Below are positions 1 to 47,049 of a DNA stretch of 47,049 nucleotides, one piece after another. Each line of letters begins with the position of its first letter. The first letter of the stretch is position 1. The translations under genes and the position numbers were made by a program. Below the pieces are notes generated by a model. The model did not search any database and was not told where the DNA came from. It saw only the letters and a list, made by a program, of their open reading frames with translations. Source of the DNA: a virus; the IMG/VR virus record IMGVR_UViG_3300048134_000195, positions 1-47,049 of that record; one strand, 5' to 3'.

Positions 1-127
1 GACGACTCCTCGCCCGCAGCGCTTGTCGTTGACGTCCAGATGATCGAAGAGGTGGATTCCGAATTGGCAGCGACGATACTCAGGTACCACGATAAGGCCG
101 AGGAGGGCTTGCTCGGGTCGCCGACGT
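1..127. repeat. Terminal direct repeat copy 1 (127 bp, identical to 46923..47049)
   Basis: Base-by-base comparison with offset 46922 shows no mismatch. The repeat runs exactly to both window ends. Confidence 0.97.
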
Positions 128-29060: not shown

Positions 29061-29831
29061 ATGGTGGATAAAAATAGTCGCACCTGGGGAGACTCGGGTA
29101 CAGAACCGGCAGCTGGTGAAGAGGTCATCTCGGGCGGAGCAGAGTACCCCGCGGACTGGATGAACTGGGCGATGTGGGCGATGACGACCGACATCGACGC
29201 GCTCGTCAGCGTCGTCGGGTCGCTCGAAGCCGTCAACGGCGTCACCGAAGTGCGGTATGAGGCGCTGGCGGACCGGCCAGCGGCGGGGCAGGCGGGCCGG
29301 TTCAGCATTCTTTCGGACGAGCAGCGCGTGACTATCGACGATGGACAGCAGTGGGTGACGGTCGGTGCGCACTCCCACGACGACCTCACGGACATCTCGG
29401 AGGGCGACCATCGGTCGGCCGAGCAGGTCCGGGATCTCGCCGGCGGCATGGCGGGGACCGCGCTCGCGCACGACGATGCGAATGACGCGCTGAACGTGGT
29501 TCAGGAGGACGTCGAGGATTGGGTTGCTGGCCTTGTGGCTGGGAAGTCAAATATCTCGGTGACGTACGACGACGGGAACGATGCGTTGTACGTTGATACG
29601 TCGGCGTTGAACGAGGAGGAGGTTGAGGATGCGATTGCTGGGCTGCTGTCCTCGAGTGATAACGTGGGGTGGAACTACGACGACGCAGGGGACACGTTGA
29701 CGGTGTCGCTGTCGGGCCCGATTACGGGCGTGCAGATTGGGACGGACGCCACACGGGCGGACGTGTTCGCGGATTCTGCAGATGCGAACTCAGTTAGCAC
29801 AGATGAGATCGTTCTCGAGGATACGCTATGA
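29061..29831 (+). CDS. Tail fibre protein, conserved proximal part with three internal repeats (256 aa)
   Basis: ATG 29061 lies inside track ORF 29010..29831, and the upstream gene ends at 29050. Repeats are HDDANDALNV, YDDGNDALYV and YDDAGDTLTV. Confidence 0.6.
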   Translation: MVDKNSRTWGDSGTEPAAGEEVISGGAEYPADWMNWAMWAMTTDIDALVSVVGSLEAVNGVTEVRYEALADRPAAGQAGRFSILSDEQRVTIDDGQQWVTVGAHSHDDLTDISEGDHRSAEQVRDLAGGMAGTALAHDDANDALNVVQEDVEDWVAGLVAGKSNISVTYDDGNDALYVDTSALNEEEVEDAIAGLLSSSDNVGWNYDDAGDTLTVSLSGPITGVQIGTDATRADVFADSADANSVSTDEIVLEDTL

Positions 29832-29845
29832 TAACAACACCGCTG

Positions 29846-29851
29846 TTTATA
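29846..29851 (+). promoter_or_regulatory. TTTATA box about 25 nt upstream of ATG 29875
   Basis: gctgtttatacgtgg lies in the 43-nt gap after the tail fibre stop. The spacing fits a leaderless archaeal transcript. Confidence 0.45.
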
Positions 29852-29874
29852 CGTGGCCTAGATGATGATTGGGC

Positions 29875-30135
29875 ATGCGACCGCCGGCCAAACTATCCCG
29901 ACGACAGTTACTGGCCACCGCAACTGCGTCCCTGGCCCCAATTACAGGCTGTTCCAGAAACGGCAGTTCGCCGACATCGGCAGAGACGCCAACTGACTCG
30001 GCTGATACCCTCGTTATCGAGACAAAGGAGACTCACACAGCAACTGGAGAGCAGTCCTACACAGCAGTCGAATGGCATGACGAAGGAGCCCTCGTCGTGG
30101 AGCAGAGCGGAAGTTTAGAACTTACTGAGCAATAA
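29875..30135 (+). CDS. Secreted Tat lipoprotein (86 aa precursor)
   Basis: MRPPAKLSRRQLLATATASLAPITGC has a twin-arginine motif, a hydrophobic core and a lipobox ITG/C. The track lists 29869..30135 with a TTG start. Confidence 0.65.
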   Translation: MRPPAKLSRRQLLATATASLAPITGCSRNGSSPTSAETPTDSADTLVIETKETHTATGEQSYTAVEWHDEGALVVEQSGSLELTEQ

Positions 30136-30136
30136 C

Positions 30137-31267
30137 ATGGCTAAGATTAAACTCATCAACGAGAACGGCGTCATCAAAGGTATCGACCCAGAAACGGGTG
30201 AAGAGGTTCCGGTGGAGTTCGAGGACCTAGAGACTCAATCGGTAAGTACAGAGGAAGCACTAATCGGGAAAACCAATCCCTATCAATACGTCTCCGAGAG
30301 CCACACCACAGTTACTGTTCCCGGAGATTACGATACAATCCAAGAAGCAATCGACGACTGTCCGAAGAATCTCCGCCACGAGTACGTCATTGACGTTGAT
30401 AACGGGGCTTACGACGAGGACTTGGTATTCAGAGGCATCGCGAATCAAGGATATACGGGTGCGGAGGCATCGACCGGCGGGATTGGCACTGATGGAGAAC
30501 ACGGGATCATCCAGATAGTGGGCGACACTACAACGCCATCGAACGTCAAAATAAATTCGGTGACGGCGATCGGATGCACGGGCGTCCAAGCGCCCACCTT
30601 ATGGGGCGTGGAACTCAACGGCGCAAGCCCGCATGTTGACGAGGACACGACCGCGGTCTTCTCAGGGTGTCAACAAGCGTTTCTCGGGGATTGTAACTTC
30701 CGAGGAGGTGCAAATAAAGCGGTTACTGCATATGGCGGCAACCTCCATGTTCGCAATATGGATGTTGGGGCTGATAACTACGATATCGCGCTATATGCAA
30801 AGCGACAGGCCGCAATCCACGAGCGTAACACTTCAGGATCCGTGACGGATAGAGGATACGTCGCCTCTGACGCTTCTTCAATCCATTCTCAGCATGATAG
30901 TAACATTAGTTCTCCCAATCGCAAATATGACCCGGTGAGTGGCTCCTATACGGTTATAGGGCCGCAGGGAATCAACTTCCAAAATGTCCAACTTCTCGGG
31001 GATGCAGGTGGACTAGAAATAAACGACAGGGTGGGGAGTGTCCCGTTCATTCTCCGAGACCTAGAGAACGGTGTGGAACGGTTCCGTGCCGAAGGCAAGG
31101 GGTACGGCAACTCCCACATTGAAAACCTGTCGGGACAGACTGGCGACTTCGACGGGCAGGTGCGGCTTGATGATGGTTCTAACACTCCACACCGAGGCGT
31201 TGAATGTGTCTGGGACGATGTGAATGGTGTTTGGGTTGACCAGACGGACGGCAGTACCTTCACCTAA
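30137..31267 (+). CDS. Right-handed beta-helix (pectate-lyase-like) protein, probable receptor-binding tailspike or depolymerase (376 aa)
   Basis: Track ORF. Repetitive G/N/T/V-rich short-strand pattern (VTAIGCTGVQ, FSGCQQAFLGDCNFRGGANKAVTAYGGNLHVRNMDVG). About 47-50% G+C. Confidence 0.6.
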   Translation: MAKIKLINENGVIKGIDPETGEEVPVEFEDLETQSVSTEEALIGKTNPYQYVSESHTTVTVPGDYDTIQEAIDDCPKNLRHEYVIDVDNGAYDEDLVFRGIANQGYTGAEASTGGIGTDGEHGIIQIVGDTTTPSNVKINSVTAIGCTGVQAPTLWGVELNGASPHVDEDTTAVFSGCQQAFLGDCNFRGGANKAVTAYGGNLHVRNMDVGADNYDIALYAKRQAAIHERNTSGSVTDRGYVASDASSIHSQHDSNISSPNRKYDPVSGSYTVIGPQGINFQNVQLLGDAGGLEINDRVGSVPFILRDLENGVERFRAEGKGYGNSHIENLSGQTGDFDGQVRLDDGSNTPHRGVECVWDDVNGVWVDQTDGSTFT

Positions 31268-31335
31268 TCAGTCCTGATTCTCTTTTAGCGGGTGTCTCAC
31301 CGCCAGCATCCTGAAAGAAACACCCGGCGCCGAGG

Positions 31336-32175
31336 TTAGTGCCGGAGTTGCTGGAGGGCGTCCTCCAGGCGCTCCGGACTCTCCTCGATGTACGCAATCG
31401 CCGTGCTGAACTGACTCCACCCGAATAGGGCTTTCAAATCCATCGCCGAGAGACCACGGGCGGCGTAGTAGCTGGCGGCCGTCGCCCGCAGCGCGTGCGG
31501 GTAGATCTCGTCGACGTCGACGGACTCGGTCTGCCGAGCCATCCGGTCGACGCGCCGGTTCACGACACCACGAGACGCTTCGAATTCATCGTAGTGCGTG
31601 AAGTAGTCCTCAACGGCGAGCGCTGCCCGCGTACTGGCTTCCGCGTACGGGATCTTCCTCGCAGCGTTCACCGTCTTCGGCGACCACATCTGCGCGTAGA
31701 ATGGCTCCGCGTCGACGAATAACTCGTAGACGTGGCCGCCGGGCTCGAGGACGTCGTGCCGCCCCAGGCTCTGGTAGTGGTCGTCGAGCGTGTTTGCCGT
31801 GCGGATGTCCGCCATCTGCTCGGCGGCACCACGGCAGTGCCCACAGATGTCTCGCGTTCGCCCGTCGGTACAGGGTTCGTGTTTCGGGATTTCGATGCGT
31901 TCGTCCTCCCAGTTGACCCAGTCCGCTTTCATGTGCGCGACCTCACCAGGTCGCATGCCGAGGCGGCCGCACGCGAAGAGGACGAGCCGGCACTCCCGAG
32001 CGAAGTAATCATCGTCCATCCGGTAGGTCGCCTGCACCATCTGCTCGAACTGGCGTTCGGTGATGGCGTCCTCCTTGGTGTGACGGACGGCATCGTCGCT
32101 TGCCCAGTCCTTTCCGTGGTCGTCGCCGGTGACGGGCTTACGGCCACGCGGCCGCTGCTGGTCCGACGAGCTCAC
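31336..32175 (-). CDS. int: Tyrosine recombinase / integrase (279 aa) with a Cys-containing insertion
   Basis: Track ORF. Motifs GMRPGE (Arg), HALRATAASY (HxxR) and GWSQFSTAIAYI (Tyr). Insertion is CTDGRTRDICGHC. Confidence 0.85.
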   Translation of the reverse strand: MSSSDQQRPRGRKPVTGDDHGKDWASDDAVRHTKEDAITERQFEQMVQATYRMDDDYFARECRLVLFACGRLGMRPGEVAHMKADWVNWEDERIEIPKHEPCTDGRTRDICGHCRGAAEQMADIRTANTLDDHYQSLGRHDVLEPGGHVYELFVDAEPFYAQMWSPKTVNAARKIPYAEASTRAALAVEDYFTHYDEFEASRGVVNRRVDRMARQTESVDVDEIYPHALRATAASYYAARGLSAMDLKALFGWSQFSTAIAYIEESPERLEDALQQLRH

Positions 32176-32831
32176 GGCTCGCCCGCCTCCATGATCGCTT
32201 CCAGGTATGCGAGGACGTCCGCGACCTCGCCGAGCAGCGGCAGCGGCTCGAGTGTCGACGCGCGCCCCAGCGTCCGGTAGTCGACGAGTCCAGCAGCATC
32301 CAGCCGCGGGACGTGTGTTTCGTGGAGCGCGACGTAGAGACTCTTGACGGCCTCTGTTCCGGGCCGGGTGTCGTGTGTTCTGAGGGTGCCGGTGTCGATG
32401 CCGTGCGCGAGCTCGGGCGTGGTGACGAAGCCGCGTTCGTCGACGTCGGGCTGCCAGTCGTCGAGGACGCGGATGGCAGCGCGCCGCCGGTCGTTCGCGA
32501 GGACGTCCAGGAGCTCGTCGAGCGTGATCTCGAGGCGGGCGCTGTCGGGCGTAGGTGGCCGGCGGCCACTGCCATCAGCGACAGCACTCCCAGTGCCGTC
32601 AGCCGTGGTTTGGTGGACGTAGACGTGCTGGAGGCCGGCGTCGGCGGTGATCTCGCCGCGATCCTCGAGGCGCTGCAGGAGCGCCTGGAGGTGGCTGCGG
32701 GTGATGCTGAATCGGAGTGCGAGCCCCTCGATGGTGGCCGGGTCGTCGAGCCAGTCGAGGTACTCAAGGACTTGCTGTGGGGTTGGTTCGCTAGCGTTAC
32801 CACTCTCTACTGGTATGTTTTCGTGGTCCAT
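32172..32831 (-). CDS. wHTH DNA-binding protein (219 aa)
   Basis: Track ORF with ATGA overlap onto int. LEYLDWLDDPATIEGLALRFSITRSHLQALLQRLEDRGEI and a second HTH-like half. Confidence 0.6.
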   Translation of the reverse strand: MDHENIPVESGNASEPTPQQVLEYLDWLDDPATIEGLALRFSITRSHLQALLQRLEDRGEITADAGLQHVYVHQTTADGTGSAVADGSGRRPPTPDSARLEITLDELLDVLANDRRRAAIRVLDDWQPDVDERGFVTTPELAHGIDTGTLRTHDTRPGTEAVKSLYVALHETHVPRLDAAGLVDYRTLGRASTLEPLPLLGEVADVLAYLEAIMEAGEP

Positions 32832-34688: not shown

Positions 34689-35081
34689 TCACTCAATCGC
34701 GTAGCCCCATCCCCGCAGGACCTCCGCAATCTCGTCGTCGTGCTCGAGGCCGACCAGCAGCGCAGCCTCGCGCAAGTCCGCCTTCTTCACAGACTCGCCG
34801 AGCAACTGCTCGACGTCACTCTTCCCGGCGCGTTCAGCGTCCACAGTATCGGCTTGTAGATGGAGTTGCACCGTCTTCTCACGCCCGTCCGTAATGCTAT
34901 TTCGGCGATGAATCCATGGCAGCCGCGTCGTCGTGTCACCGCCAGCATCCTGCACCGACCCACCCGTCGACTCAGGAGTCTGGTCGCGGTCGACGTCGCG
35001 ACGATCGTCGGCGTCCTCTTCCTCCTCAAAACTATCATCATCCCAGTCGTCGTCCGCAGCGCCGCTCTTGAATCCAGCCAT
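34689..35081 (-). CDS. Acidic protein with a C-terminal RHH-like domain, ParG-like partner of ParA (130 aa)
   Basis: Track ORF with ATGA overlap onto parA. C-terminus is ..LPWIHRRNS..VQLHLQ..ADLREAALLVGLEH..LRGWGYAIE. Confidence 0.55.
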   Translation of the reverse strand: MAGFKSGAADDDWDDDSFEEEEDADDRRDVDRDQTPESTGGSVQDAGGDTTTRLPWIHRRNSITDGREKTVQLHLQADTVDAERAGKSDVEQLLGESVKKADLREAALLVGLEHDDEIAEVLRGWGYAIE

Positions 35082-35968
35082 CAGGCGGTCACCTCGGTTT
35101 CATCCTCGTCGTCGAGCGCACCGGGCTCAGGCGGGGATGGTGCCTCAATCCCGCCAACGCGCTCGATGAACCGCGCGATTTCGTCGAACTGCGCGAGCGT
35201 ATCCACTTCGTAGTCCCGGCGCCGGTCGCGGTGTTCACGAACGTACTGATACGCCGAGCACTGTTGCCGCCAGCACCCCTCCAGCAGGGCCGTCCGGTCC
35301 CCGATCACCGCGGGGACGTCGTACGGGATCTCCTTGAGGAGGTCCTGCTGATCGCTCGTTCCCTTGACCCCGACGGGGACGGCGCCGAGGACACCGACGT
35401 CGATGTTCAATTCGTCCGCGAAGTTCCGCGCGAGGTCCTCCAGCCCCTCAACTGCTGCTTGTCCTTTCGCGCTCGGTTCGACTGGGAGGAGGAGGTTTCG
35501 CGTGGCGTAGATCGCGTTGTAGAGGTGTGCCCCCTCCGTTGCGGGCGGGTCGACGATGACGACGTCGTACTCGCTGGGGACGTCGGCTTCTTGGAGGACG
35601 CGCCGGAGCTGGGCGTGGACGTTGTATGCTTCGCCGAAGTCCTCTGCTTTCTGCTTCTCGCGGCGGAGGTGGTCTTCGAGGTCCGACAGCGCGTTGTGCT
35701 CGGGGACAATGTCGACGCCCTCGGCGGTCCGAATGAGGTCGTGGAACGGACCGCGTGGTGAGTCGACCATGTGGCGGACGATGTTGTCGGCTGAGGAGTT
35801 CTCGCGGTCGTCGTCGACGTCGAAGAGGCGGCTGAGGTTTCCGTCCTGGGGGTCGAGCGGAACCACGAGGACGTCGAGGCCGGCTCGGCGATGCGCGACG
35901 GCGAGGTTCGCAGTAAGCGTCGTTTTGCCGACGCCACCTGCCTCCGAGTACACGGTGTACGCGAGCAT
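35081..35968 (-). CDS. parA: ParA/Soj-type partition ATPase (295 aa)
   Basis: Track ORF. Deviant Walker A VYSEAGGVGKTTLTANLA and Walker B-like YDVVIVDPPA. Confidence 0.85.
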   Translation of the reverse strand: MLAYTVYSEAGGVGKTTLTANLAVAHRRAGLDVLVVPLDPQDGNLSRLFDVDDDRENSSADNIVRHMVDSPRGPFHDLIRTAEGVDIVPEHNALSDLEDHLRREKQKAEDFGEAYNVHAQLRRVLQEADVPSEYDVVIVDPPATEGAHLYNAIYATRNLLLPVEPSAKGQAAVEGLEDLARNFADELNIDVGVLGAVPVGVKGTSDQQDLLKEIPYDVPAVIGDRTALLEGCWRQQCSAYQYVREHRDRRRDYEVDTLAQFDEIARFIERVGGIEAPSPPEPGALDDEDETEVTA

Positions 35969-36003
35969 AGTCGTAGCTGTGTCTCTGAGGTAATGAATCT
36001 ACG

Positions 36004-36019
36004 TCAGACACTTGTCTGA
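36004..36019. promoter_or_regulatory. Palindromic operator candidate TCAGACA-CT-TGTCTGA upstream of parA
   Basis: 7-bp arms about 35-50 nt upstream of the parA ATG (35968). Contains CACTTGTCT, which is also at 37957-37965. Confidence 0.45.
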
Positions 36020-36074
36020 GAACGATAGATGAGTGAGATATCTTAGTAAGAAGTCTATCTAAGACGCCTAAGAT

Positions 36075-36854
36075 TCAATTCTGAGACTCTGATTCTGGCT
36101 GGTATCCCCACTGAACAAGCTGATCTACGACAAGTCCGGGACGTTCTATTGCCGCGAGGATGGCAGCTTCCCGAAGATCTGCGCGATAAACATCTTCATT
36201 CAGTTGGGTTTCGATCTGGTTCTGGAATTCCACGAATTTGCGCGCGGTTTCGTCTTGGAGGTGCAGTTGCTTCGTGACACTCCGATCCGTGACAGGGGAC
36301 TCACGCTGATAGATCCAAGGGAGTGAGACGTCTTCGGTGGTCGTCTCGTGTTTGTCATCTGGGTCGCCCGTCGCGTAGCTGACGAGTTCCTCCCAGTGTT
36401 CGGTAAGGCCAGTCAGGCCGATCCGGCTGAGATTTCCATCGATTACATCAAAGCTAAACTCGCCAGTGGCGTGAGTGGTGGCGCCGATGACGGGGCCGTA
36501 TCCAGATGCGTTGTCAAGTAGCGACTCGTTTTCGTCGAACAGATAGTCCGCAGCGACAAGGATTGGGTGGCAGTCTGCAGCTGCGTAGTCTCGGAGTTGC
36601 GATGCCGCTCCGATGGAGTCCGCGAGCGTCGTCTTCACCTCGAACGCGTATTTCGCAGAGGGCTCAACGCTGAACTCGTTTTCTTTCATCAGCATTACGT
36701 CGGCTCGGCGCTCCCTGCCGTCGACGGTGACCGGCTTCTCTTCGTGGACAACGACGTCGGTCGCACTATCCTGGAACTGGTTGGTGTACTCGCTAAGCGT
36801 ATGCAGAAGTGCTCGTTTCAGGACGTCGTGGTCCATTGTATCGAGGTCACCCAT
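36075..36854 (-). CDS. PD-(D/E)xK-like nuclease domain fused to a C-terminal RHH-like domain (259 aa)
   Basis: Track ORF. Candidate catalytic residues in RRADVMLM and YAFEVKT. The C-terminal ~75 aa are alignable with the C-terminus of 34689..35081. Confidence 0.55.
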   Translation of the reverse strand: MGDLDTMDHDVLKRALLHTLSEYTNQFQDSATDVVVHEEKPVTVDGRERRADVMLMKENEFSVEPSAKYAFEVKTTLADSIGAASQLRDYAAADCHPILVAADYLFDENESLLDNASGYGPVIGATTHATGEFSFDVIDGNLSRIGLTGLTEHWEELVSYATGDPDDKHETTTEDVSLPWIYQRESPVTDRSVTKQLHLQDETARKFVEFQNQIETQLNEDVYRADLREAAILAAIERPGLVVDQLVQWGYQPESESQN

Positions 36855-37470
36855 CGAGGAGTTCCTCCCGCGCCTCCTGGACGCGCTGGTACTCGGCCTC
36901 GTCCCCGCCCTGGTCGGGATGCGTCTCCTTCACGCGCTCCCGATACGCCGCCCGAATCTTCTCGGGACTGGCGTCGCGATCGACACCGAGGATAGTGTGG
37001 GCGGGGGGCTCGCCGGCGACGACTGCGTCGGTGTCCCCGTCGGCAGGTGGGAGGCGTGCGTTTGCGAACTCTGACTCTCCGGTCGCGACGGGACGATTCT
37101 CCATCCGGCGCTTCTCACGAAGGTACAGTCCGGCCTGCCGGACATTATCGCGGAGCCGGGTGTGAGTGTCGCAGGCGACGGCGTAGTCGGCGTCGTCCAT
37201 TCGCCAGCGCAGCACGAACCCAGGGTCATCTGGGTTCGCACGGGCGTATGGTCGCTGGTCGGTTTTGCGCTGCTGGGCGTCGAACTCGTAGCGGTATCTG
37301 TCCGCGCCGATGCGCTCGAGCTCCTTCTCCAAGTCGTCGAAGGCGTCCGAGAGAGACACCGAGAAATTGTTGTTCGGTTCTCGGTGCTCTGCGCTCGTTC
37401 GGTCAAAGCCGGCTGGCCAGTCGATACGCGAGTTCGAACGGGTAGATGAGGTCGTTGAGTTACTCGCCAT
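36847..37470 (-). CDS. J-domain (DnaJ-like) protein (207 aa)
   Basis: Internal ATG 37470 of track ORF 36847..37578. C-terminal ILGVDRDASPEKIRAAYRERVKETHPDQGGDEAEYQRVQEAREELL contains the HPD motif. Confidence 0.8.
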   Translation of the reverse strand: MASNSTTSSTRSNSRIDWPAGFDRTSAEHREPNNNFSVSLSDAFDDLEKELERIGADRYRYEFDAQQRKTDQRPYARANPDDPGFVLRWRMDDADYAVACDTHTRLRDNVRQAGLYLREKRRMENRPVATGESEFANARLPPADGDTDAVVAGEPPAHTILGVDRDASPEKIRAAYRERVKETHPDQGGDEAEYQRVQEAREELLDG

Positions 37471-37945
37471 CGAGGATCTCCTCCATGCGGTCGAGGGCGT
37501 CCTCGAGGTTGTCTCGGTTGAGGTTCTTCTCCGCACGCTGGGCGTCCGCGAGCGCGTCCCGCAGCTCATCAACGTCAATGCTCTGTGATTCGGCTTCGTG
37601 GAGTTCGCGTTCGAGGCGTTGCTTTTCGACGCGGAGCTCTTCGAGCTCGTCGCGTGCCTGCTCGAGTTTGTGCTCGAGCGCGTCGGCGTCGGCGTCGTCG
37701 GTGGTGCCGAGGTCGAGGCGGTCGCGTTGTTCGCTGGGGATGTTCTCGGGTTGGAGTTCGTAGACGCCGCGGCCGACGTTGGTGACGTAGTCGGCGCTCT
37801 CCATCTGTTGGAGGCGTTGGGTGATCCACTGGCGTGAGACGTCGAGTTGTTCGGCGAGGTTTGAGGGGACGTTGCGGCCGGTGGCGAGCGTTTCGAGGAT
37901 GCGCTCGTCGATGTCTTTCAGCTCGTGTGCCATTTGCTGGTGCAT
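37460..37945 (-). CDS. wHTH plus coiled-coil protein, repressor-like (161 aa)
   Basis: Track ORF. ERILETLATGRNVPSNLAEQLDVSRQWITQRLQQMESADYV is followed by heptad-rich LEQARDELEELRVEKQRLERELHEAE. Confidence 0.7.
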   Translation of the reverse strand: MHQQMAHELKDIDERILETLATGRNVPSNLAEQLDVSRQWITQRLQQMESADYVTNVGRGVYELQPENIPSEQRDRLDLGTTDDADADALEHKLEQARDELEELRVEKQRLERELHEAESQSIDVDELRDALADAQRAEKNLNRDNLEDALDRMEEILDGE

Positions 37946-45985: not shown

Positions 45986-47049
45986 CCACACTCCTCTCGA
46001 CTGGCTCGTCCCGTCCGATGAGTGGGACCGGTTCTGCCGCTTCGTCGAGGGAGAGGACGGGAGTCTCGACGGCTATCTCGGCGATGCAGCGGAACAGGCG
46101 ATGGCCGAGTACGCTCATGTCGACGAGTACGCCGGCATCGAGGAGCGGGTCGACAAGCTCGTCACGGCTGCCGGTCGCCGTCCCGAGGACGGTTTCAAAG
46201 AAAAAAATTCGGGGTTGCTGGAGGACTGGGCAGACGCGGACAAGACTCGCGTCACCGTCAAAGTCGAGCGTGAAGTGAAGGCGAAGTTCCGCGAAGTCGC
46301 GAGTGACAGCGACCACGCGTTCGGCGTGGAATTCGCGCGCGCCATTCGCACGTACCGCGACGGCGGTCGTCGCGACCGTGTCGAACGGAAGCTCGACCGC
46401 ATCCTTGACGACGCCGAACGCCTCCTCAGCGACCTGCAGCCCGACGACGAGGAGACCGAGGGTTCCTCAGAGTCGCTGTCGTTGGCGGAGCGGAAGACCA
46501 TCGCCGTCTGCGACGAGCTCGGCGAGCAGTTCACCGATGACGAACTGGTCGACGCCATCGAGCGTGTCGCCGAGGTCTCCAGCGAACCCTCGATCGAGAA
46601 GTACCGCGGGCTGGTCGTTGACCGACTCGGGATGGAGCGTCACCCAGGCGAACCGCATCTGTGGGTTCCCCATGATGTCGTGGACCAGCTCGCACCTGGC
46701 CAGCCTCGCGTAATCCGGCAGTCAGTCGAACGCCTCGATCGCGAGGAACGCGTTCGCCGCGTTCAACTGGCAGTCGGTCGTGCTGCCGCTGAACGCGACT
46801 CTGACATCGTCCGCGTGCAGACACCCGTAATTCAGGAAGAAGTCCTCGGCGGCGAAGTCACGCGGTCGAGCACGTTGAGTCTGATGCGCGCGGCGCAGTT
46901 GTCCGCGGGCATCGAGGTTGATGACGACTCCTCGCCCGCAGCGCTTGTCGTTGACGTCCAGATGATCGAAGAGGTGGATTCCGAATTGGCAGCGACGATA
47001 CTCAGGTACCACGATAAGGCCGAGGAGGGCTTGCTCGGGTCGCCGACGT
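45978..47049 (+). CDS. 5' part of the junction-spanning gene (409 aa in total on the circular map: 45978..46922 then 1..285)
   Basis: Manual codon-by-codon reading shows ATG 45978 and no stop up to the window end. The frame continues at position 1. It is absent from the ORF track because it has no stop in the window. Contains an RHH-like KTRVTVKVEREVKAKFREV segment. Confidence 0.75.
   Translation, partial: MYDHTPLDWLVPSDEWDRFCRFVEGEDGSLDGYLGDAAEQAMAEYAHVDEYAGIEERVDKLVTAAGRRPEDGFKEKNSGLLEDWADADKTRVTVKVEREVKAKFREVASDSDHAFGVEFARAIRTYRDGGRRDRVERKLDRILDDAERLLSDLQPDDEETEGSSESLSLAERKTIAVCDELGEQFTDDELVDAIERVAEVSSEPSIEKYRGLVVDRLGMERHPGEPHLWVPHDVVDQLAPGQPRVIRQSVERLDREERVRRVQLAVGRAAAERDSDIVRVQTPVIQEEVLGGEVTRSSTLSLMRAAQLSAGIEVDDDSSPAALVVDVQMIEEVDSELAATILRYHDKAEEGLLGSPT
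46193..46210. repeat. 18-bp AT-rich inverted repeat, right arm (tttcaaagaaaaaaattc), inside the junction-spanning gene
   Basis: Perfect reverse complement of 45734..45751. Encodes ..GFKEKNSG... Confidence 0.95.
46923..47049. repeat. Terminal direct repeat copy 2 (127 bp, identical to 1..127)
   Basis: Same comparison. The preceding bases ..gaggttgat have no counterpart because the window starts at the repeat. Confidence 0.97.

What the first reader, a model, noticed from the sequence alone, without database searches (positions are those of the whole stretch)
36075..36854. PD-(D/E)xK-like nuclease carrying a paralogue of the ParG-like DNA-binding tail
Seen: the 259-aa protein has a candidate restriction-endonuclease-fold core (..GRERRADVMLMKENEFSVEPSAKYAFEVKTTL.., D ... 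E-x-K, then QLRDY). Its C-terminal ~75 aa align with the tail of the ParA partner:
- SLPWIYQRESPVTDRSVTKQLHLQDETARKFVEFQNQIETQLNEDVYRADLREAAILAAIERPGLVVDQLVQWGY
- RLPWIHRRNSITDGREKTVQLHLQADTVDAERAGKSDVEQLLGESVKKADLREAALLVGLEHDDEIAEVLRGWGY
Shared blocks are LPWI, QLHLQ, ADLREAA and WGY. The gene is lower in G+C. Inference: a nuclease targeted to DNA by the same kind of sequence-specific RHH module that recognises the centromere/operator. Possible roles:
- destruction of competing (incompatible) replicons carrying related centromeres;
- a post-segregational or abortive-infection toxin held in check at the operator;
- a resolvase-like function.
I know of no described partition-linked nuclease of this architecture.
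Basis: partly seen in the sequence, partly recalled or inferred. Interest (0 to 1): 0.75.

Follow-up and report, generated by a model that had tools for sequence, protein, structure and literature searches.

The report
Nuclease fused to centromere-binding domain
A salt-loving archaeal virus that probably persists as a plasmid carries a rare, swapped-in gene that joins a DNA-cutting domain to a copy of the domain its partition system appears to use to recognise its centromere-like repeats, an architecture I found no description of.

Summary
Gene 36075-36854 (-) encodes a 259-aa two-domain protein.

- **C-terminal domain.** The last ~89 aa are 40% identical (E=1e-16) to the 130-aa protein encoded after parA. 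Both carry Pfam DUF7970.
- **N-terminal domain.** AlphaFold models residues 1-160 confidently as an alpha-beta-beta-beta-alpha-beta restriction-endonuclease-like fold. Foldseek E is 1e-6 to 1e-4 against viral MmcB-like and PD-(D/E)xK proteins. D52, E72, K74 and Q86 are invariant in the relatives aligned or read (six plus two).
- **Rarity.** Only about ten relatives turned up in searches of 5.8 billion clusters and 1.84 billion representatives. Only three carry this fusion.
- **Position.** All three fusion genes sit directly upstream of a parA-DUF7970 operon, separated by an AT-rich spacer full of CTTAG repeats.
- **Repeats.** The same CTTAG arrays, often at 13-bp spacing, precede parA in 7/7 sampled plasmids with the same TVQLHLQ motif.
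- **Missing peptide.** The fusion lacks the MxGFK N-terminus found in 117/120 small paralogues.
- **Accessory status.** A close relative has an unrelated 85-aa gene in the same slot.

Best reading: an accessory endonuclease tethered to CTTAG centromere-like arrays. It is probably selfish or competitor-directed. The ribbon-helix-helix fold and the nuclease activity remain unproven.

The parts
36075..36854 (-). Gene for the 259-aa fusion protein: PD-(D/E)xK-like N-domain, disordered linker, DUF7970 C-domain
   Evidence: ORF list. Homologues P0002 and P0003 have the same layout. Structure model me62e1d966cbe.
36372..36854 (-). N-terminal domain, residues 1-161, restriction-endonuclease-like fold
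   Evidence: AlphaFold pLDDT about 90. Elements H9-25, E32-44, E47-59, E65-74, H83-92, E96-102. Foldseek PDB top hits 2ph7, 3ijm and 1y88, probability 0.82-0.96. BFVD hits E=1.3e-6 to 4.4e-4, including MmcB-like repair proteins.
36585..36701 (-). Candidate active site: D52 (36699-36701), E72-V-K74 (36633-36641), Q86...Y90 (36585-36599)
   Evidence: Invariant columns in the six-sequence alignment A4. Also present in the L007 and L008 proteins, with Y90 replaced by S in L008. Codon coordinates checked.
36324..36371 (-). Variable acidic linker, residues 162-177
   Evidence: pLDDT below 50 for residues 162-197. No conservation among the three fusions.
36102..36323 (-). DUF7970 domain, residues 178-251. 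Candidate DNA-reading ribbon TKQLHLQ at 36255-36275
   Evidence: BLASTP E=1e-16 to the small paralogue. PF25925 annotation. Helices 201-218, 224-237 and 239-248 at pLDDT 82-95. Ribbon and repeat sequence vary together across loci.
36090..36850 (-). Exchangeable cassette: the segment absent from close relatives L025/L026, which hold a 337-bp segment with an 85-aa zinc-ribbon ORF instead
   Evidence: blastn breakpoints: window 37573-36851 matches L025 4942-5655 (82%), and window 36089-32492 matches L025 5993-9551 (92.7%). Alignment. Translations.
35969..36074 (.). AT-rich spacer (G+C 0.41) between the fusion gene and parA. It carries three CTTAG/CTAAG repeats starting at 36042, 36059 and 36068. 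Candidate centromere/operator
   Evidence: 3 of the window's 10 CTTAG sites fall in 106 nt. Expected 0.02, Poisson P=1.9e-6. Homologous spacers hold 8 sites (L002) and 4 sites (Natrinema). A fourth repeat in L025 (GTCTTAG) reads GTCTCAG inside the fusion's last codons.
36000..36009 (-). Conserved box GTCTGACGTA, about 41 nt upstream of the parA ATG and followed by a TATA-like element. Probable core promoter or operator part
   Evidence: Single occurrence in the window. Conserved in all three fusion loci and in several other parA loci.
35081..35968 (-). parA, a 295-aa deviant Walker-type ATPase
   Evidence: Pfam AAA_31 1.2e-20, CbiA, ParA. phrog_164 ParA-like. 27% identical to HpaA of H. volcanii pHV3.
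34689..35081 (-). Small DUF7970 protein (130 aa), the ParA partner: MAGFK N-terminal peptide, acidic linker, DUF7970 domain
   Evidence: 384 relatives. 117 of 120 start with MxGFK. The gene always directly follows parA in the sampled plasmids.
36847..37945 (-). Upstream genes on the same strand: a wHTH/coiled-coil protein (37460-37945) and a J-domain protein (36847-37578) whose end overlaps the fusion gene start by 8 nt
   Evidence: Pfam DnaJ 4.2e-10 and HTH_24. phrog_9210 3.4e-61. These neighbours are not conserved in the other two fusion loci.

Best explanation
The gene is an accessory, horizontally exchanged cassette of a haloarchaeal tailed virus related to ChaoS9. The virus also carries plasmid-type maintenance genes: parA with a DUF7970 partner, Orc1/Cdc6, and two integrases.

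**Shown**
- The product has an N-terminal PD-(D/E)xK-fold domain with an intact D...ExK...Q motif.
- A disordered linker joins it to a C-terminal DUF7970 domain. That domain is a diverged paralogue of the small protein encoded after parA.
- The gene always lies directly upstream of a CTTAG repeat array at the parA promoter.
- It lacks the conserved MxGFK N-terminal peptide and acidic linker of the small paralogue.

**Inferred**
- The DUF7970 domain dimerises and reads CTTAG repeats through the strand T-K-Q-L-H-L-Q, as the small centromere-binding protein does.
- This tethers the nuclease domain to centromere/operator arrays of this class.
- Without the ParA-contacting peptide, the fusion cannot drive partition.
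- The tethered domain cuts or nicks DNA beside the array.

**Most likely use:** selfish or competitive, in one of two forms.
- Cleavage of CTTAG-type par loci that lack the cassette, followed by repair that copies the gene in (homing-like).
- Damage to co-resident or incoming replicons that share the centromere type.

Its own locus could be spared because the gene itself replaces the flanking DNA that would be cut.
For: - **Homology of the tail.** E=1e-16 and a shared Pfam family.
- **Fold.**, with Foldseek.
- **Motif conservation.** Invariant residues across relatives only 31-38% identical to the window protein.
- **Modularity.** The same domain is fused to a winged-helix domain in P0124, P0127, P0128 and L007, and stands alone in P0125, P0126 and L008. 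It therefore behaves as a module that gets paired with DNA-binding domains.
- **Synteny.** The order fusion, spacer, parA, small DUF7970 holds in 3/3 loci whose ParA proteins are only 53-71% identical.
- **Repeat arrays.** CTTAG arrays are present in 3/3 fusion loci and 7/7 plasmids with the TVQLHLQ ribbon. Their density is 28-fold above the rest of those loci, and 13-bp spacing occurs in 11 of 18 neighbouring pairs. Three loci with other ribbons have other repeats.
- **Missing peptide.** MxGFK is present in 117/120 small proteins and absent from the fusion. In the remote relative HpaB, the first 12 residues are needed for ParA-dependent positioning, and a ribbon tyrosine is needed for focus formation (preprint 10.1101/2025.11.19.689047). 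hhalign of HpaB against DUF7970 gives E=2.5e-4.
- **Accessory and mobile character.** Low G+C. A clean cassette swap against L025/L026 and L023, with the right breakpoint on the first repeat. The fusion C-domains form their own clade: 65-69% identical to each other and 38-51% to any small protein.
Against: - No activity data exist, and PD-(D/E)xK folds are sometimes non-catalytic.
- The RHH fold and CTTAG binding are not demonstrated.
- The virus's own array keeps three intact CTTAG sites, so self-cleavage is not obviously avoided.
- The three fusion proteins differ from one another about as much as their ParA neighbours do. That fits vertical co-inheritance as well as mobility.
- Only three loci are known, so synteny statistics are thin.
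- No candidate cleavage site has been identified.
Confidence: 0.45

Rival explanations
1. Regulatory or structural paralogue. The fusion is a second centromere/operator-binding protein. It competes with, or forms mixed dimers with, the small DUF7970 protein at the CTTAG array. In that way it could repress parA transcription or switch partition off, for example on entry into lytic growth. The PD-(D/E)xK domain would serve only for oligomerisation or extra DNA contacts.
For: - It has the same DNA-reading motif as the small protein and lacks the ParA-contacting peptide.
- The array lies directly upstream of the parA core promoter.
- In the HpaB study, N-terminally truncated protein still forms foci but loses ordered positioning.
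Against: - D52, E72, K74 and Q86 are invariant across relatives only 31-38% identical to the window protein, including stand-alone and winged-helix-fused forms outside par loci. That points to selection for catalysis.
- Close relatives of the virus do without the gene.
Confidence: 0.2
2. Centromere-tethered junction or dimer resolvase. The nuclease domain is structure-selective, like Hjc or RecU. Its recruitment to the partition site would let replicon dimers or recombination intermediates be resolved before segregation.
For: - Holliday-junction resolvases of archaea and their viruses are small PD-(D/E)xK proteins (established knowledge).
- Multimer resolution functions often sit next to partition loci, as in RK2 parCBA and P1 cre-lox (own knowledge).
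- The gene lies next to the par operon.
Against: - No Hjc, RecU or other resolvase appears among the Foldseek hits shown.
- The virus already has two tyrosine recombinases.
- Closely related viruses lack the gene.
Confidence: 0.1
3. Toxin of an addiction or abortive-infection module. The nuclease is held at, or masked on, the operator array, or neutralised by the small DUF7970 protein. It would be released to degrade DNA when the replicon is lost or the cell is superinfected.
For: - It has a nuclease fold with an intact motif.
- It is linked to a maintenance locus.
- The small paralogue could act as a protecting partner by occupying the sites.
Against: - No conserved upstream or overlapping partner gene exists. 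The neighbours are a J-domain gene in the window, a 69-aa unrelated ORF in Natrinema, and non-coding DNA in L002.
- There is no match to PADLOC defence models.
- The small paralogue is a general ParA partner found in hundreds of loci without the fusion.
Confidence: 0.08
4. No functional link to partition. The DUF7970 tail is used only as a dimerisation module, and the position next to parA reflects a permissive insertion slot.
For: The slot between the J-domain gene and parA holds three unrelated genes in three related viruses.
Against: - The same adjacency to a CTTAG array occurs in three loci with otherwise different neighbours.
- The ribbon residues are kept exactly.
Confidence: 0.07

Closest known systems
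HpaA/HpaB of Haloferax volcanii pHV3 (preprint 10.1101/2025.11.19.689047)
   Same: - A small ParA-type ATPase gene is followed, with overlap, by a small acidic protein.
- That protein has an N-terminal ParA-contacting peptide, a disordered acidic linker and a C-terminal domain predicted as RHH.
- The C-terminal helices of HpaB align with DUF7970 at 43% identity over 47 columns, hhalign E=2.5e-4.
   Different: - HpaB is not a DUF7970 member: hhalign probability is only 43%, and its N-terminus and ribbon (TVHKALY) differ.
- ParA of the window is only 27% identical to HpaA.
- No nuclease fusion is described there, and a term search of the paper found no binding site or repeat reported.
Type Ib partition systems: ParF-ParG of TP228 and delta-omega of pSM19035
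   Same: - A small ParA lacking an N-terminal DNA-binding domain.
- A small dimeric partner with a flexible N-terminal tail that acts on ParA.
- Arrays of short direct and inverted repeats upstream of the operon that serve as both centromere and operator (own knowledge).
- Here the matching features are gene order, the MxGFK tail and CTTAG arrays at 13-bp spacing.
   Different: - No sequence or profile similarity to ParG or omega.
- The RHH fold is unproven here.
- Those systems have no paralogue fused to an enzyme domain.
Free-standing modular homing endonucleases (I-TevI, T4 Seg/Mob proteins, PD-(D/E)xK homing enzymes such as I-Ssp6803I)
   Same: - A catalytic domain joined by a flexible linker to a separate sequence-specific DNA-binding domain.
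- Sporadic presence in an intergenic slot between conserved genes of related viruses.
- Deviant base composition.
- The gene lies next to its presumed recognition site (own knowledge).
   Different: - The DNA-binding module is borrowed from a centromere-binding protein and would read a repeat array, not a unique gene sequence.
- Cleavage and gene conversion are untested.
- There is no sequence similarity to known homing endonuclease families.
MmcB-like PD-(D/E)xK proteins (Pfam PF06319) and other restriction-endonuclease-like folds (PDB 2ph7, 3ijm, 1y88)
   Same: They are the best structural neighbours of the N-domain. BFVD gives E=2.7e-5 and target-normalised TM 0.56 for a phage MmcB-like protein. 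PDB hits have probability 0.82-0.96.
   Different: No Pfam, NCBIfam or PHROG profile matches the N-domain. Only P0124 gives a sub-threshold hit to NF033832 (sce7726 family). None of these has a DUF7970 tail.
Nucleases encoded in plasmid stability loci: ParB of RK2/RP4 (parCBA) and ParB/Srx-fold nucleases
   Same: A nuclease encoded within or beside a plasmid maintenance locus (own knowledge).
   Different: They have different folds: staphylococcal-nuclease-like and ParB/Srx. They belong to a resolvase-based stability system, not a ParA ATPase system. None has a domain shared with the centromere-binding protein.
Mrr-type enzymes (winged helix plus PD-(D/E)xK)
   Same: A PD-(D/E)xK domain combined with a small DNA-binding domain. 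The relatives P0124, P0127, P0128 and L007 carry a C-terminal winged helix with weak Mrr_N similarity.
   Different: The domain order is reversed, there is no Mrr_cat profile match, and the window protein has DUF7970 instead of a winged helix.

Membership tests
PD-(D/E)xK (restriction-endonuclease-like) superfamily | Core alpha-beta-beta-beta-alpha-beta fold | tested here: met
   AlphaFold model has pLDDT about 90 over residues 10-150, with elements in the canonical order. Foldseek neighbours are REase-like folds.
PD-(D/E)xK (restriction-endonuclease-like) superfamily | Acidic residue on strand 2 and (D/E)xK on strand 3, conserved in the family | tested here: met
   D52 lies in strand 47-59 and E72-x-K74 at the end of strand 65-74. 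These and Q86 are invariant in the relatives aligned or read. The spatial clustering of these residues could not be checked because no coordinates were available.
PD-(D/E)xK (restriction-endonuclease-like) superfamily | Significant match to a curated sequence family of the superfamily | tested here: not met
   No Pfam, NCBIfam, PHROG, PADLOC or PDB-sequence hit for the N-domain. Membership therefore rests on fold and motif only.
PD-(D/E)xK (restriction-endonuclease-like) superfamily | Metal-dependent phosphodiester cleavage | not testable with these tools
   Needs biochemistry.
DUF7970 (Pfam PF25925) | Match to the family model and its conserved blocks (LPW, QLHLQ, ADLREAA, WGY) | tested here: met
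   Precomputed PF25925 annotation for P0001-P0003. BLASTP E=1e-16 to a member. 18 invariant columns shared with 26 members. The local Pfam copy does not hold this model.
DUF7970-type ParA partner (centromere-binding protein role) | Gene immediately downstream of parA and overlapping it | tested here: not met
   The fusion gene is upstream of parA, separated by a 106-bp spacer that holds the parA promoter region. The small paralogue meets this feature in all sampled loci.
DUF7970-type ParA partner (centromere-binding protein role) | Conserved N-terminal MxGFK peptide plus acidic linker (presumed ParA contact) | tested here: not met
   117/120 small proteins have it. The fusion has the nuclease domain in its place.
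Ribbon-helix-helix DNA-binding proteins (ParG/omega/CopG class) | Beta-alpha-alpha unit forming an intertwined dimer with a two-stranded ribbon | tested here: inconclusive
   - Monomer models show helices 201-218, 224-237 and 239-248, and 77-94, 100-110 and 115-124 in the small protein. The preceding ribbon segment has low confidence.
- Foldseek finds no RHH protein.
- The alternating T-V-Q-L-H-L-Q pattern and the G-x-S...ADLREAA segment fit the RHH signature. The HpaB preprint predicts RHH for a remote relative.
Ribbon-helix-helix DNA-binding proteins (ParG/omega/CopG class) | Binding to arrays of short repeats at the operon promoter | tested here: inconclusive
   Arrays exist and vary together with the ribbon sequence across 13 loci. 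Binding itself was not tested.
Free-standing homing endonucleases | Presence/absence polymorphism at one intergenic slot among close relatives | tested here: met
   Window against L025/L026 (flanks 82% and 92.7% identical) and L023, with three different inserts.
Free-standing homing endonucleases | Cleavage of the empty allele near the insertion point, followed by gene conversion | not testable with these tools
   Needs cleavage mapping and mixed-infection or co-transformation experiments.
Holliday-junction resolvases (Hjc/RecU type) | Closest structural neighbours are resolvases; junction-specific cleavage | tested here: not met
   No resolvase appears among the Foldseek hits shown from PDB or BFVD. 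Junction cleavage is not testable here.

The most novel reading that the evidence does not exclude
A mobile endonuclease has captured the DNA-reading domain of a centromere-binding protein. It would therefore recognise the partition sites (CTTAG arrays) shared by a whole class of haloarchaeal plasmids, megaplasmids and plasmid-like viruses. It would then either copy itself next to those sites (centromere homing) or cut competing replicons at their centromeres, turning partition incompatibility into active exclusion.
Probability: 0.22. Interest if true: 0.85.

Novelty: new variant of a known kind. Interest (0 to 1): 0.6.

Why it matters
Partition systems of archaeal plasmids and viruses are barely characterised. 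The only experimental study I found (HpaAB, 2025 preprint) reports no centromere in the sections and terms I checked.

This locus contributes three things:
- a candidate centromere/operator for the widespread ParA-DUF7970 class, namely CTTAG repeats at 13-bp spacing;
- a clear domain map of the small partner: ParA-contacting peptide, acidic linker, DNA-binding domain;
- a natural experiment in which the DNA-binding domain has been moved onto a nuclease.

If the fusion cuts at or beside centromeres, it would be a new way for mobile elements to compete or spread. It would also be a ready-made programmable tether for haloarchaeal genetics. If it is catalytically inert, it would be a new kind of partition regulator.

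Both outcomes can be tested directly with a small set of binding, cleavage and plasmid-stability assays.

Tried and rejected
- **Profile libraries.** Pfam, NCBIfam, PHROGs and PADLOC gave nothing for either domain. The local Pfam copy lacks PF25925. The only trace was P0124 against NF033832 (sce7726 family) at E=6.4e-5, below its cut-off.
- **PDB sequence searches.** Profile searches of PDB sequences with the N-domain and the small-protein alignments gave no meaningful hit.
- **Single-chain tandem model.** Heterotandem alignments (A6, A7) placed all homologues on one half, so I did not submit them.
- **Small-protein monomer model.** It gave only weak three-helix matches with E>5.
- **Scans for the N-domain.** Species-representative genomes and IMG/VR contigs returned no relatives. 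The first genome scan failed because no block was conserved enough.
- **Generic repeat finder.** It missed the 5-nt repeats and returned only chance pairs. The count of TCTTAG over the whole window is not enriched (4 against 5.2 expected). Only its clustering is.
- **Annotated PD-(D/E)XK gene next to parA on Halorubrum salinarum pHAR01.** It is unrelated to the window's N-domain (E=1.7).
- **A conserved upstream partner gene (antitoxin-like).** Sought and not found.
- **Literature.** No paper mentions PF25925 or DUF7970. None describes an RHH-nuclease fusion at a par locus.
Full report
**1. Observation**

The ORF at 36075-36854 on the minus strand encodes 259 residues.

- **Shared tail.** Residues 166-254 align with residues 45-130 of the 130-aa ORF at 34689-35081. 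That ORF overlaps the stop codon of a 295-aa ParA ATPase gene at 35081-35968. The alignment is 36/89 identical (40%), E=1e-16. Both proteins carry Pfam PF25925 in the precomputed annotation of the protein collection. PF25925 is named DUF7970. The local Pfam copy does not include that model, so direct scans returned nothing.
- **G+C.** The gene has G+C 0.558 and GC3 0.635. The window average is 0.644 and neighbouring genes have GC3 of about 0.8. The gene lies in the lowest 4% of 780-bp windows.
- **Reality of the gene.** The same protein occurs on two contigs. Homologues 63-64% identical with the same layout exist on the complete 57.9-kb plasmid 'unnamed5' of Natrinema sp. DC36 and on five Logan contigs.

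**2. The N-terminal domain**

- **Model.** I ran AlphaFold2 on an alignment of the three fusions plus 26 DUF7970 domains. It models residues 10-150 at pLDDT about 90. The elements are helix 9-25, strands 32-44, 47-59 and 65-74, helix 83-92 and strand 96-102. That is the alpha-beta-beta-beta-alpha-beta core of the restriction-endonuclease-like fold.
- **Structural neighbours in the PDB.** The best Foldseek hits are 2ph7, 3ijm (annotated as a restriction endonuclease-like fold protein) and 1y88. Their E-values are 5e-3 to 2e-2 and probabilities 0.82-0.96. Lower hits include the R2 endonuclease, tRNA splicing endonucleases, YaeQ, DUF820 and Card1.
- **Structural neighbours among viral models.** Five hits have E below 1e-3, the best at 1.3e-6. 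They include 'MmcB-like DNA repair protein' entries. Weaker hits are named restriction endonuclease, Cas4-like nuclease, PD-(D/E)XK nuclease and VSR homing endonuclease.
- **Motif.** D52 lies in the second strand and E72-V-K74 at the end of the third. Q86 and Y90 lie in the following helix.
- **Family size.**
  - A profile search of 1.84 billion representative proteins found only three further relatives.
  - A profile search of the 5.8-billion-cluster collection found two more.
  - A metagenome scan found two loci.
- **Motif conservation.** D52, E72, K74 and Q86 are invariant in the six-sequence alignment, although the non-fusion relatives are only 31-34% identical to the window protein there. 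The L007 and L008 proteins keep them as well.
- **No profile match.** No curated sequence family matches the domain.

I file the N-domain under the PD-(D/E)xK superfamily by fold and motif, as a small and previously unannotated family. Catalysis is inferred.

**3. Modularity of the N-domain**

Outside the three fusions the domain takes two forms.
- It stands alone in P0125, P0126 and L008.
- It is followed by a winged-helix domain in P0124, P0127, P0128 and L007, which also has a second tandem paralogue.

The domain has therefore been paired more than once with small DNA-binding domains.

**4. The C-terminal domain and its small paralogue**

- **Abundance and position.** The small protein has at least 384 relatives, all in haloarchaeal data. 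tblastn finds the domain on 85 haloarchaeal plasmid records. In each of the ten plasmid loci I opened, the gene directly follows parA, overlapping or within a few bases of its stop codon.
- **Parts of the small protein.** There are three:
  - an N-terminal peptide MxGFK[SD]G, present in 117 of 120 sequences;
  - an acidic, variable linker of about 50 residues;
  - the conserved domain LPWIxxRxSITDGRxxTVQLHLQ...GESVKKADLREAALLVGL...WGY.
- **What the fusion keeps and loses.** It keeps the third part with the same ribbon-like strand (TKQLHLQ). The nuclease domain replaces the first two parts.
- **Phylogeny.** The fusion C-domains form their own clade. They are 65-69% identical to each other and 38-51% to any small protein, including the one in their own locus. 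The fusion is therefore not a recent local duplication.

**5. Is the tail a ParG-like ribbon-helix-helix?**

I could not show it.
- Monomer models of both proteins give three confident helices preceded by a low-confidence segment that holds the candidate strand.
- Foldseek with the small-protein model gives only insignificant three-helix matches.
- Profile searches of PDB sequences give no hit.

Three things favour the RHH reading.
- The strand alternates polar and hydrophobic residues (T-V-Q-L-H-L-Q).
- The segment G-E-S-V-K-K-A-D-L-R-E-A-A resembles the loop and second helix of RHH proteins (own knowledge).
- A 2025 preprint on Haloferax volcanii pHV3 reports on HpaB, the small protein encoded after the ParA homologue HpaA. 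HpaB is predicted as an RHH dimer resembling ParG and SegB. It needs a ribbon tyrosine for focus formation and for replicon maintenance. It needs its first 12 residues for HpaA-dependent positioning.

HpaB is a remote relative at best. hhalign gives E=2.5e-4, probability 43%, and 43% identity over the last helices.

**6. The DNA between the genes**

- **Window.** The 106-bp spacer 35969-36074 has G+C 0.41. It contains three of the window's ten CTTAG/CTAAG pentamers. The expectation is 0.02, Poisson P=1.9e-6.
- **Other fusion loci.** The corresponding spacers contain eight sites in 210 bp (L002) and four sites in 115 bp (Natrinema plasmid).
- **Plasmids without the fusion.** In seven further plasmids whose small protein has the TVQLHLQ strand, there are 35 CTTAG sites in the 250 nt upstream of parA. 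The remaining 27.8 kb of those loci holds 20. That is a 28-fold higher density. Consecutive same-strand sites are 13 bp apart in 11 of 18 cases and 26 bp apart in 3.
- **Covariation.** Three loci whose small proteins have a different strand (QRPVFLR or QIQFFLR) have different repeats. The strand and the repeat vary together, which is what one expects if this domain reads the repeats.
- **Promoter.** A box GTCTGACGTA about 41 nt before the parA start, followed by a TATA-like element, is conserved in many loci and probably belongs to the promoter.
- **Layout.** Arrays directly upstream of the core promoter resemble the combined centromere/operator of type Ib partition systems (own knowledge).

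**7. Genomic setting**

- The window is a complete circle with a 127-bp terminal overlap.
- It encodes a Mu F-like head protein, a tape-measure protein and a baseplate J protein, together with Orc1/Cdc6 and two tyrosine recombinases.
- Its large terminase is 74% identical to that of Halobacterium virus ChaoS9.
- It is therefore a tailed haloarchaeal virus with plasmid-type maintenance genes. That fits carriage as a plasmid prophage, which is an inference.
- The fusion gene overlaps the end of a J-domain gene. That gene follows a winged-helix/coiled-coil gene on the same strand. These neighbours are not conserved in the other two fusion loci.
- The only conserved neighbours are the repeat array, parA and the small DUF7970 gene.

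**8. The gene is an exchangeable cassette**

- Contigs L025 and L026 come from a closely related virus whose small protein is 89% identical. They align with the window on both sides. The J-domain gene is 82% identical, and 3.6 kb from the array through parA to the integrase is 92.7% identical.
- Between window positions 36851 and 36089 they carry an unrelated 337-bp segment. It holds an 85-aa ORF with four CxxC pairs and a short hairpin.
- A more distant relative, L023, has a 101-aa ORF in the same place.
- The right breakpoint falls on the first repeat of the array. GTCTTAG in L025 reads GTCTCAG inside the last codons of the fusion gene.

Together with the low G+C, this shows the fusion is an accessory gene in a variable slot and not a core partition component.

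**9. Mechanism**

Shown:
- a PD-(D/E)xK-fold domain with a conserved motif;
- a flexible linker;
- a diverged copy of the ParA partner's conserved domain;
- loss of the ParA-contacting peptide;
- a constant position beside CTTAG arrays;
- accessory status.

Inferred:
- The C-domain dimerises and binds CTTAG repeats.
- This tethers the nuclease domain to centromere/operator arrays.
- The protein cannot stimulate ParA.
- The nuclease cuts or nicks nearby DNA.

*Preferred role.* I think a selfish or competitive role is most likely. This combines a homing-like version and an exclusion version, with a joint confidence of about 0.45 for the tethered-nuclease model. The reasons are the modular architecture, the sporadic distribution, the deviant composition and the position next to the presumed recognition site. 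All of these resemble free-standing homing endonucleases. In addition, CTTAG arrays are shared by many haloarchaeal replicons, which would make them a broad target.

*Self-protection.* The gene itself may replace the flank that would be cut. This is speculative.

*Rivals.*

| Rival explanation | Confidence |
|---|---|
| Non-catalytic regulator or competitor at the array | 0.2 |
| Tethered junction or dimer resolvase | 0.1 |
| Toxin of an addiction or abortive-infection module | 0.08 |
| No functional link to partition | 0.07 |

**10. Comparison with known systems and novelty**

- The small protein with ParA and the arrays works like a type Ib system and like HpaAB. It is not a sequence member of ParG or omega, and it is only remotely related to HpaB.
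- The fusion works, on present evidence, like a modular endonuclease with a borrowed DNA-binding domain.
- I found no paper mentioning DUF7970, and none describing a nuclease fused to a centromere-binding domain at a ParA locus.
- Known nucleases in stability loci, such as RK2 ParB and ParB/Srx-fold nucleases, have other folds and share no domain with the centromere-binding protein (own knowledge).

I rate it a new variant of known kinds, with interest 0.6. The architecture and its setting are unusual and directly testable. However, only three copies are known and no activity has been shown.

Noticed in passing
window 35969-36074; also L011 1350-1420, L012 1375-1470, L013 1380-1425, L016-L018, L020: CTTAG pentamers arrayed mostly at 13-bp (or 26-bp) spacing just upstream of the parA core promoter in haloarchaeal ParA-DUF7970 loci. 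This is a candidate centromere/operator for the class. Loci whose small protein has a different ribbon sequence carry different repeats. I found no description of this in the literature I could search.
   Followed up: yes
window 34689-35081 and about 120 relatives (P0004-P0123): 117 of 120 small DUF7970 proteins start with MxGFK[SD]G, followed by an acidic linker of about 50 residues. This is probably the ParA-contacting peptide, by analogy with the first 12 residues of HpaB.
   Followed up: partly
window 36090-36850 versus L025 5656-5992 and L023 5552-5857: The slot between the J-domain gene and the repeat array holds three unrelated genes in three related viruses: the nuclease fusion, an 85-aa ORF with four CxxC pairs, and a 101-aa ORF. 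The two alleles without the fusion share a 9-bp-stem hairpin, TTAACCAAC...GTTGGTTAA, just after the variable ORF.
   Followed up: partly
window 36000-36009; L012, L013, L020 about 41 nt upstream of parA: Conserved box (T)GTCTGACGTA followed by a TATA-like element. L025 has a second, similar copy (CCTGACGTAG...) on the other side of the repeat array.
   Followed up: partly
window 1-127 and 46923-47049: The first 127 bases are repeated at the end, so the contig is a closed circle of about 46.9 kb. It combines tailed-virus structural genes (Mu F-like, tape measure, baseplate J, and a terminase 74% identical to ChaoS9) with Orc1/Cdc6, ParA and two tyrosine recombinases.
   Followed up: partly
window 29770-32491: A second segment has no counterpart in the relative L025. 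It contains a low-G+C gene (30137-31267, G+C 0.527, weak pectinesterase-like hit, possibly a tail fibre or receptor-binding protein) and an integrase-family gene (31336-32175). It may be a host-range cassette.
   Followed up: no
window 36847-37578: A 243-aa protein with a C-terminal J-domain (DnaJ, 4.2e-10) matches viral family phrog_9210 at 3.4e-61. Its stop overlaps the fusion gene start by 8 nt. The function of J-domain proteins in haloarchaeal viruses is unknown.
   Followed up: no
L007 630-1473: Two paralogues of the nuclease domain lie in tandem. The first is fused to a C-terminal winged helix, and a small winged-helix gene precedes them. The second copy appears frameshifted or truncated at the contig end.
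   Followed up: no
L013 1-1099 (Halorubrum salinarum pHAR01): A gene annotated as a PD-(D/E)XK nuclease family protein lies divergent from parA across the CTTAG array. It is unrelated in sequence to the window's N-domain (E=1.7). It may be coincidence, or a second case of a nuclease next to such an array.
   Followed up: partly
L008 1700-2773: Next to a stand-alone member of the nuclease-domain family lies a 357-aa protein with a D...ELK...Q..KY pattern, resembling NucS/RecB-type nucleases. An integrase lies nearby. This looks like an integrated element.
   Followed up: no
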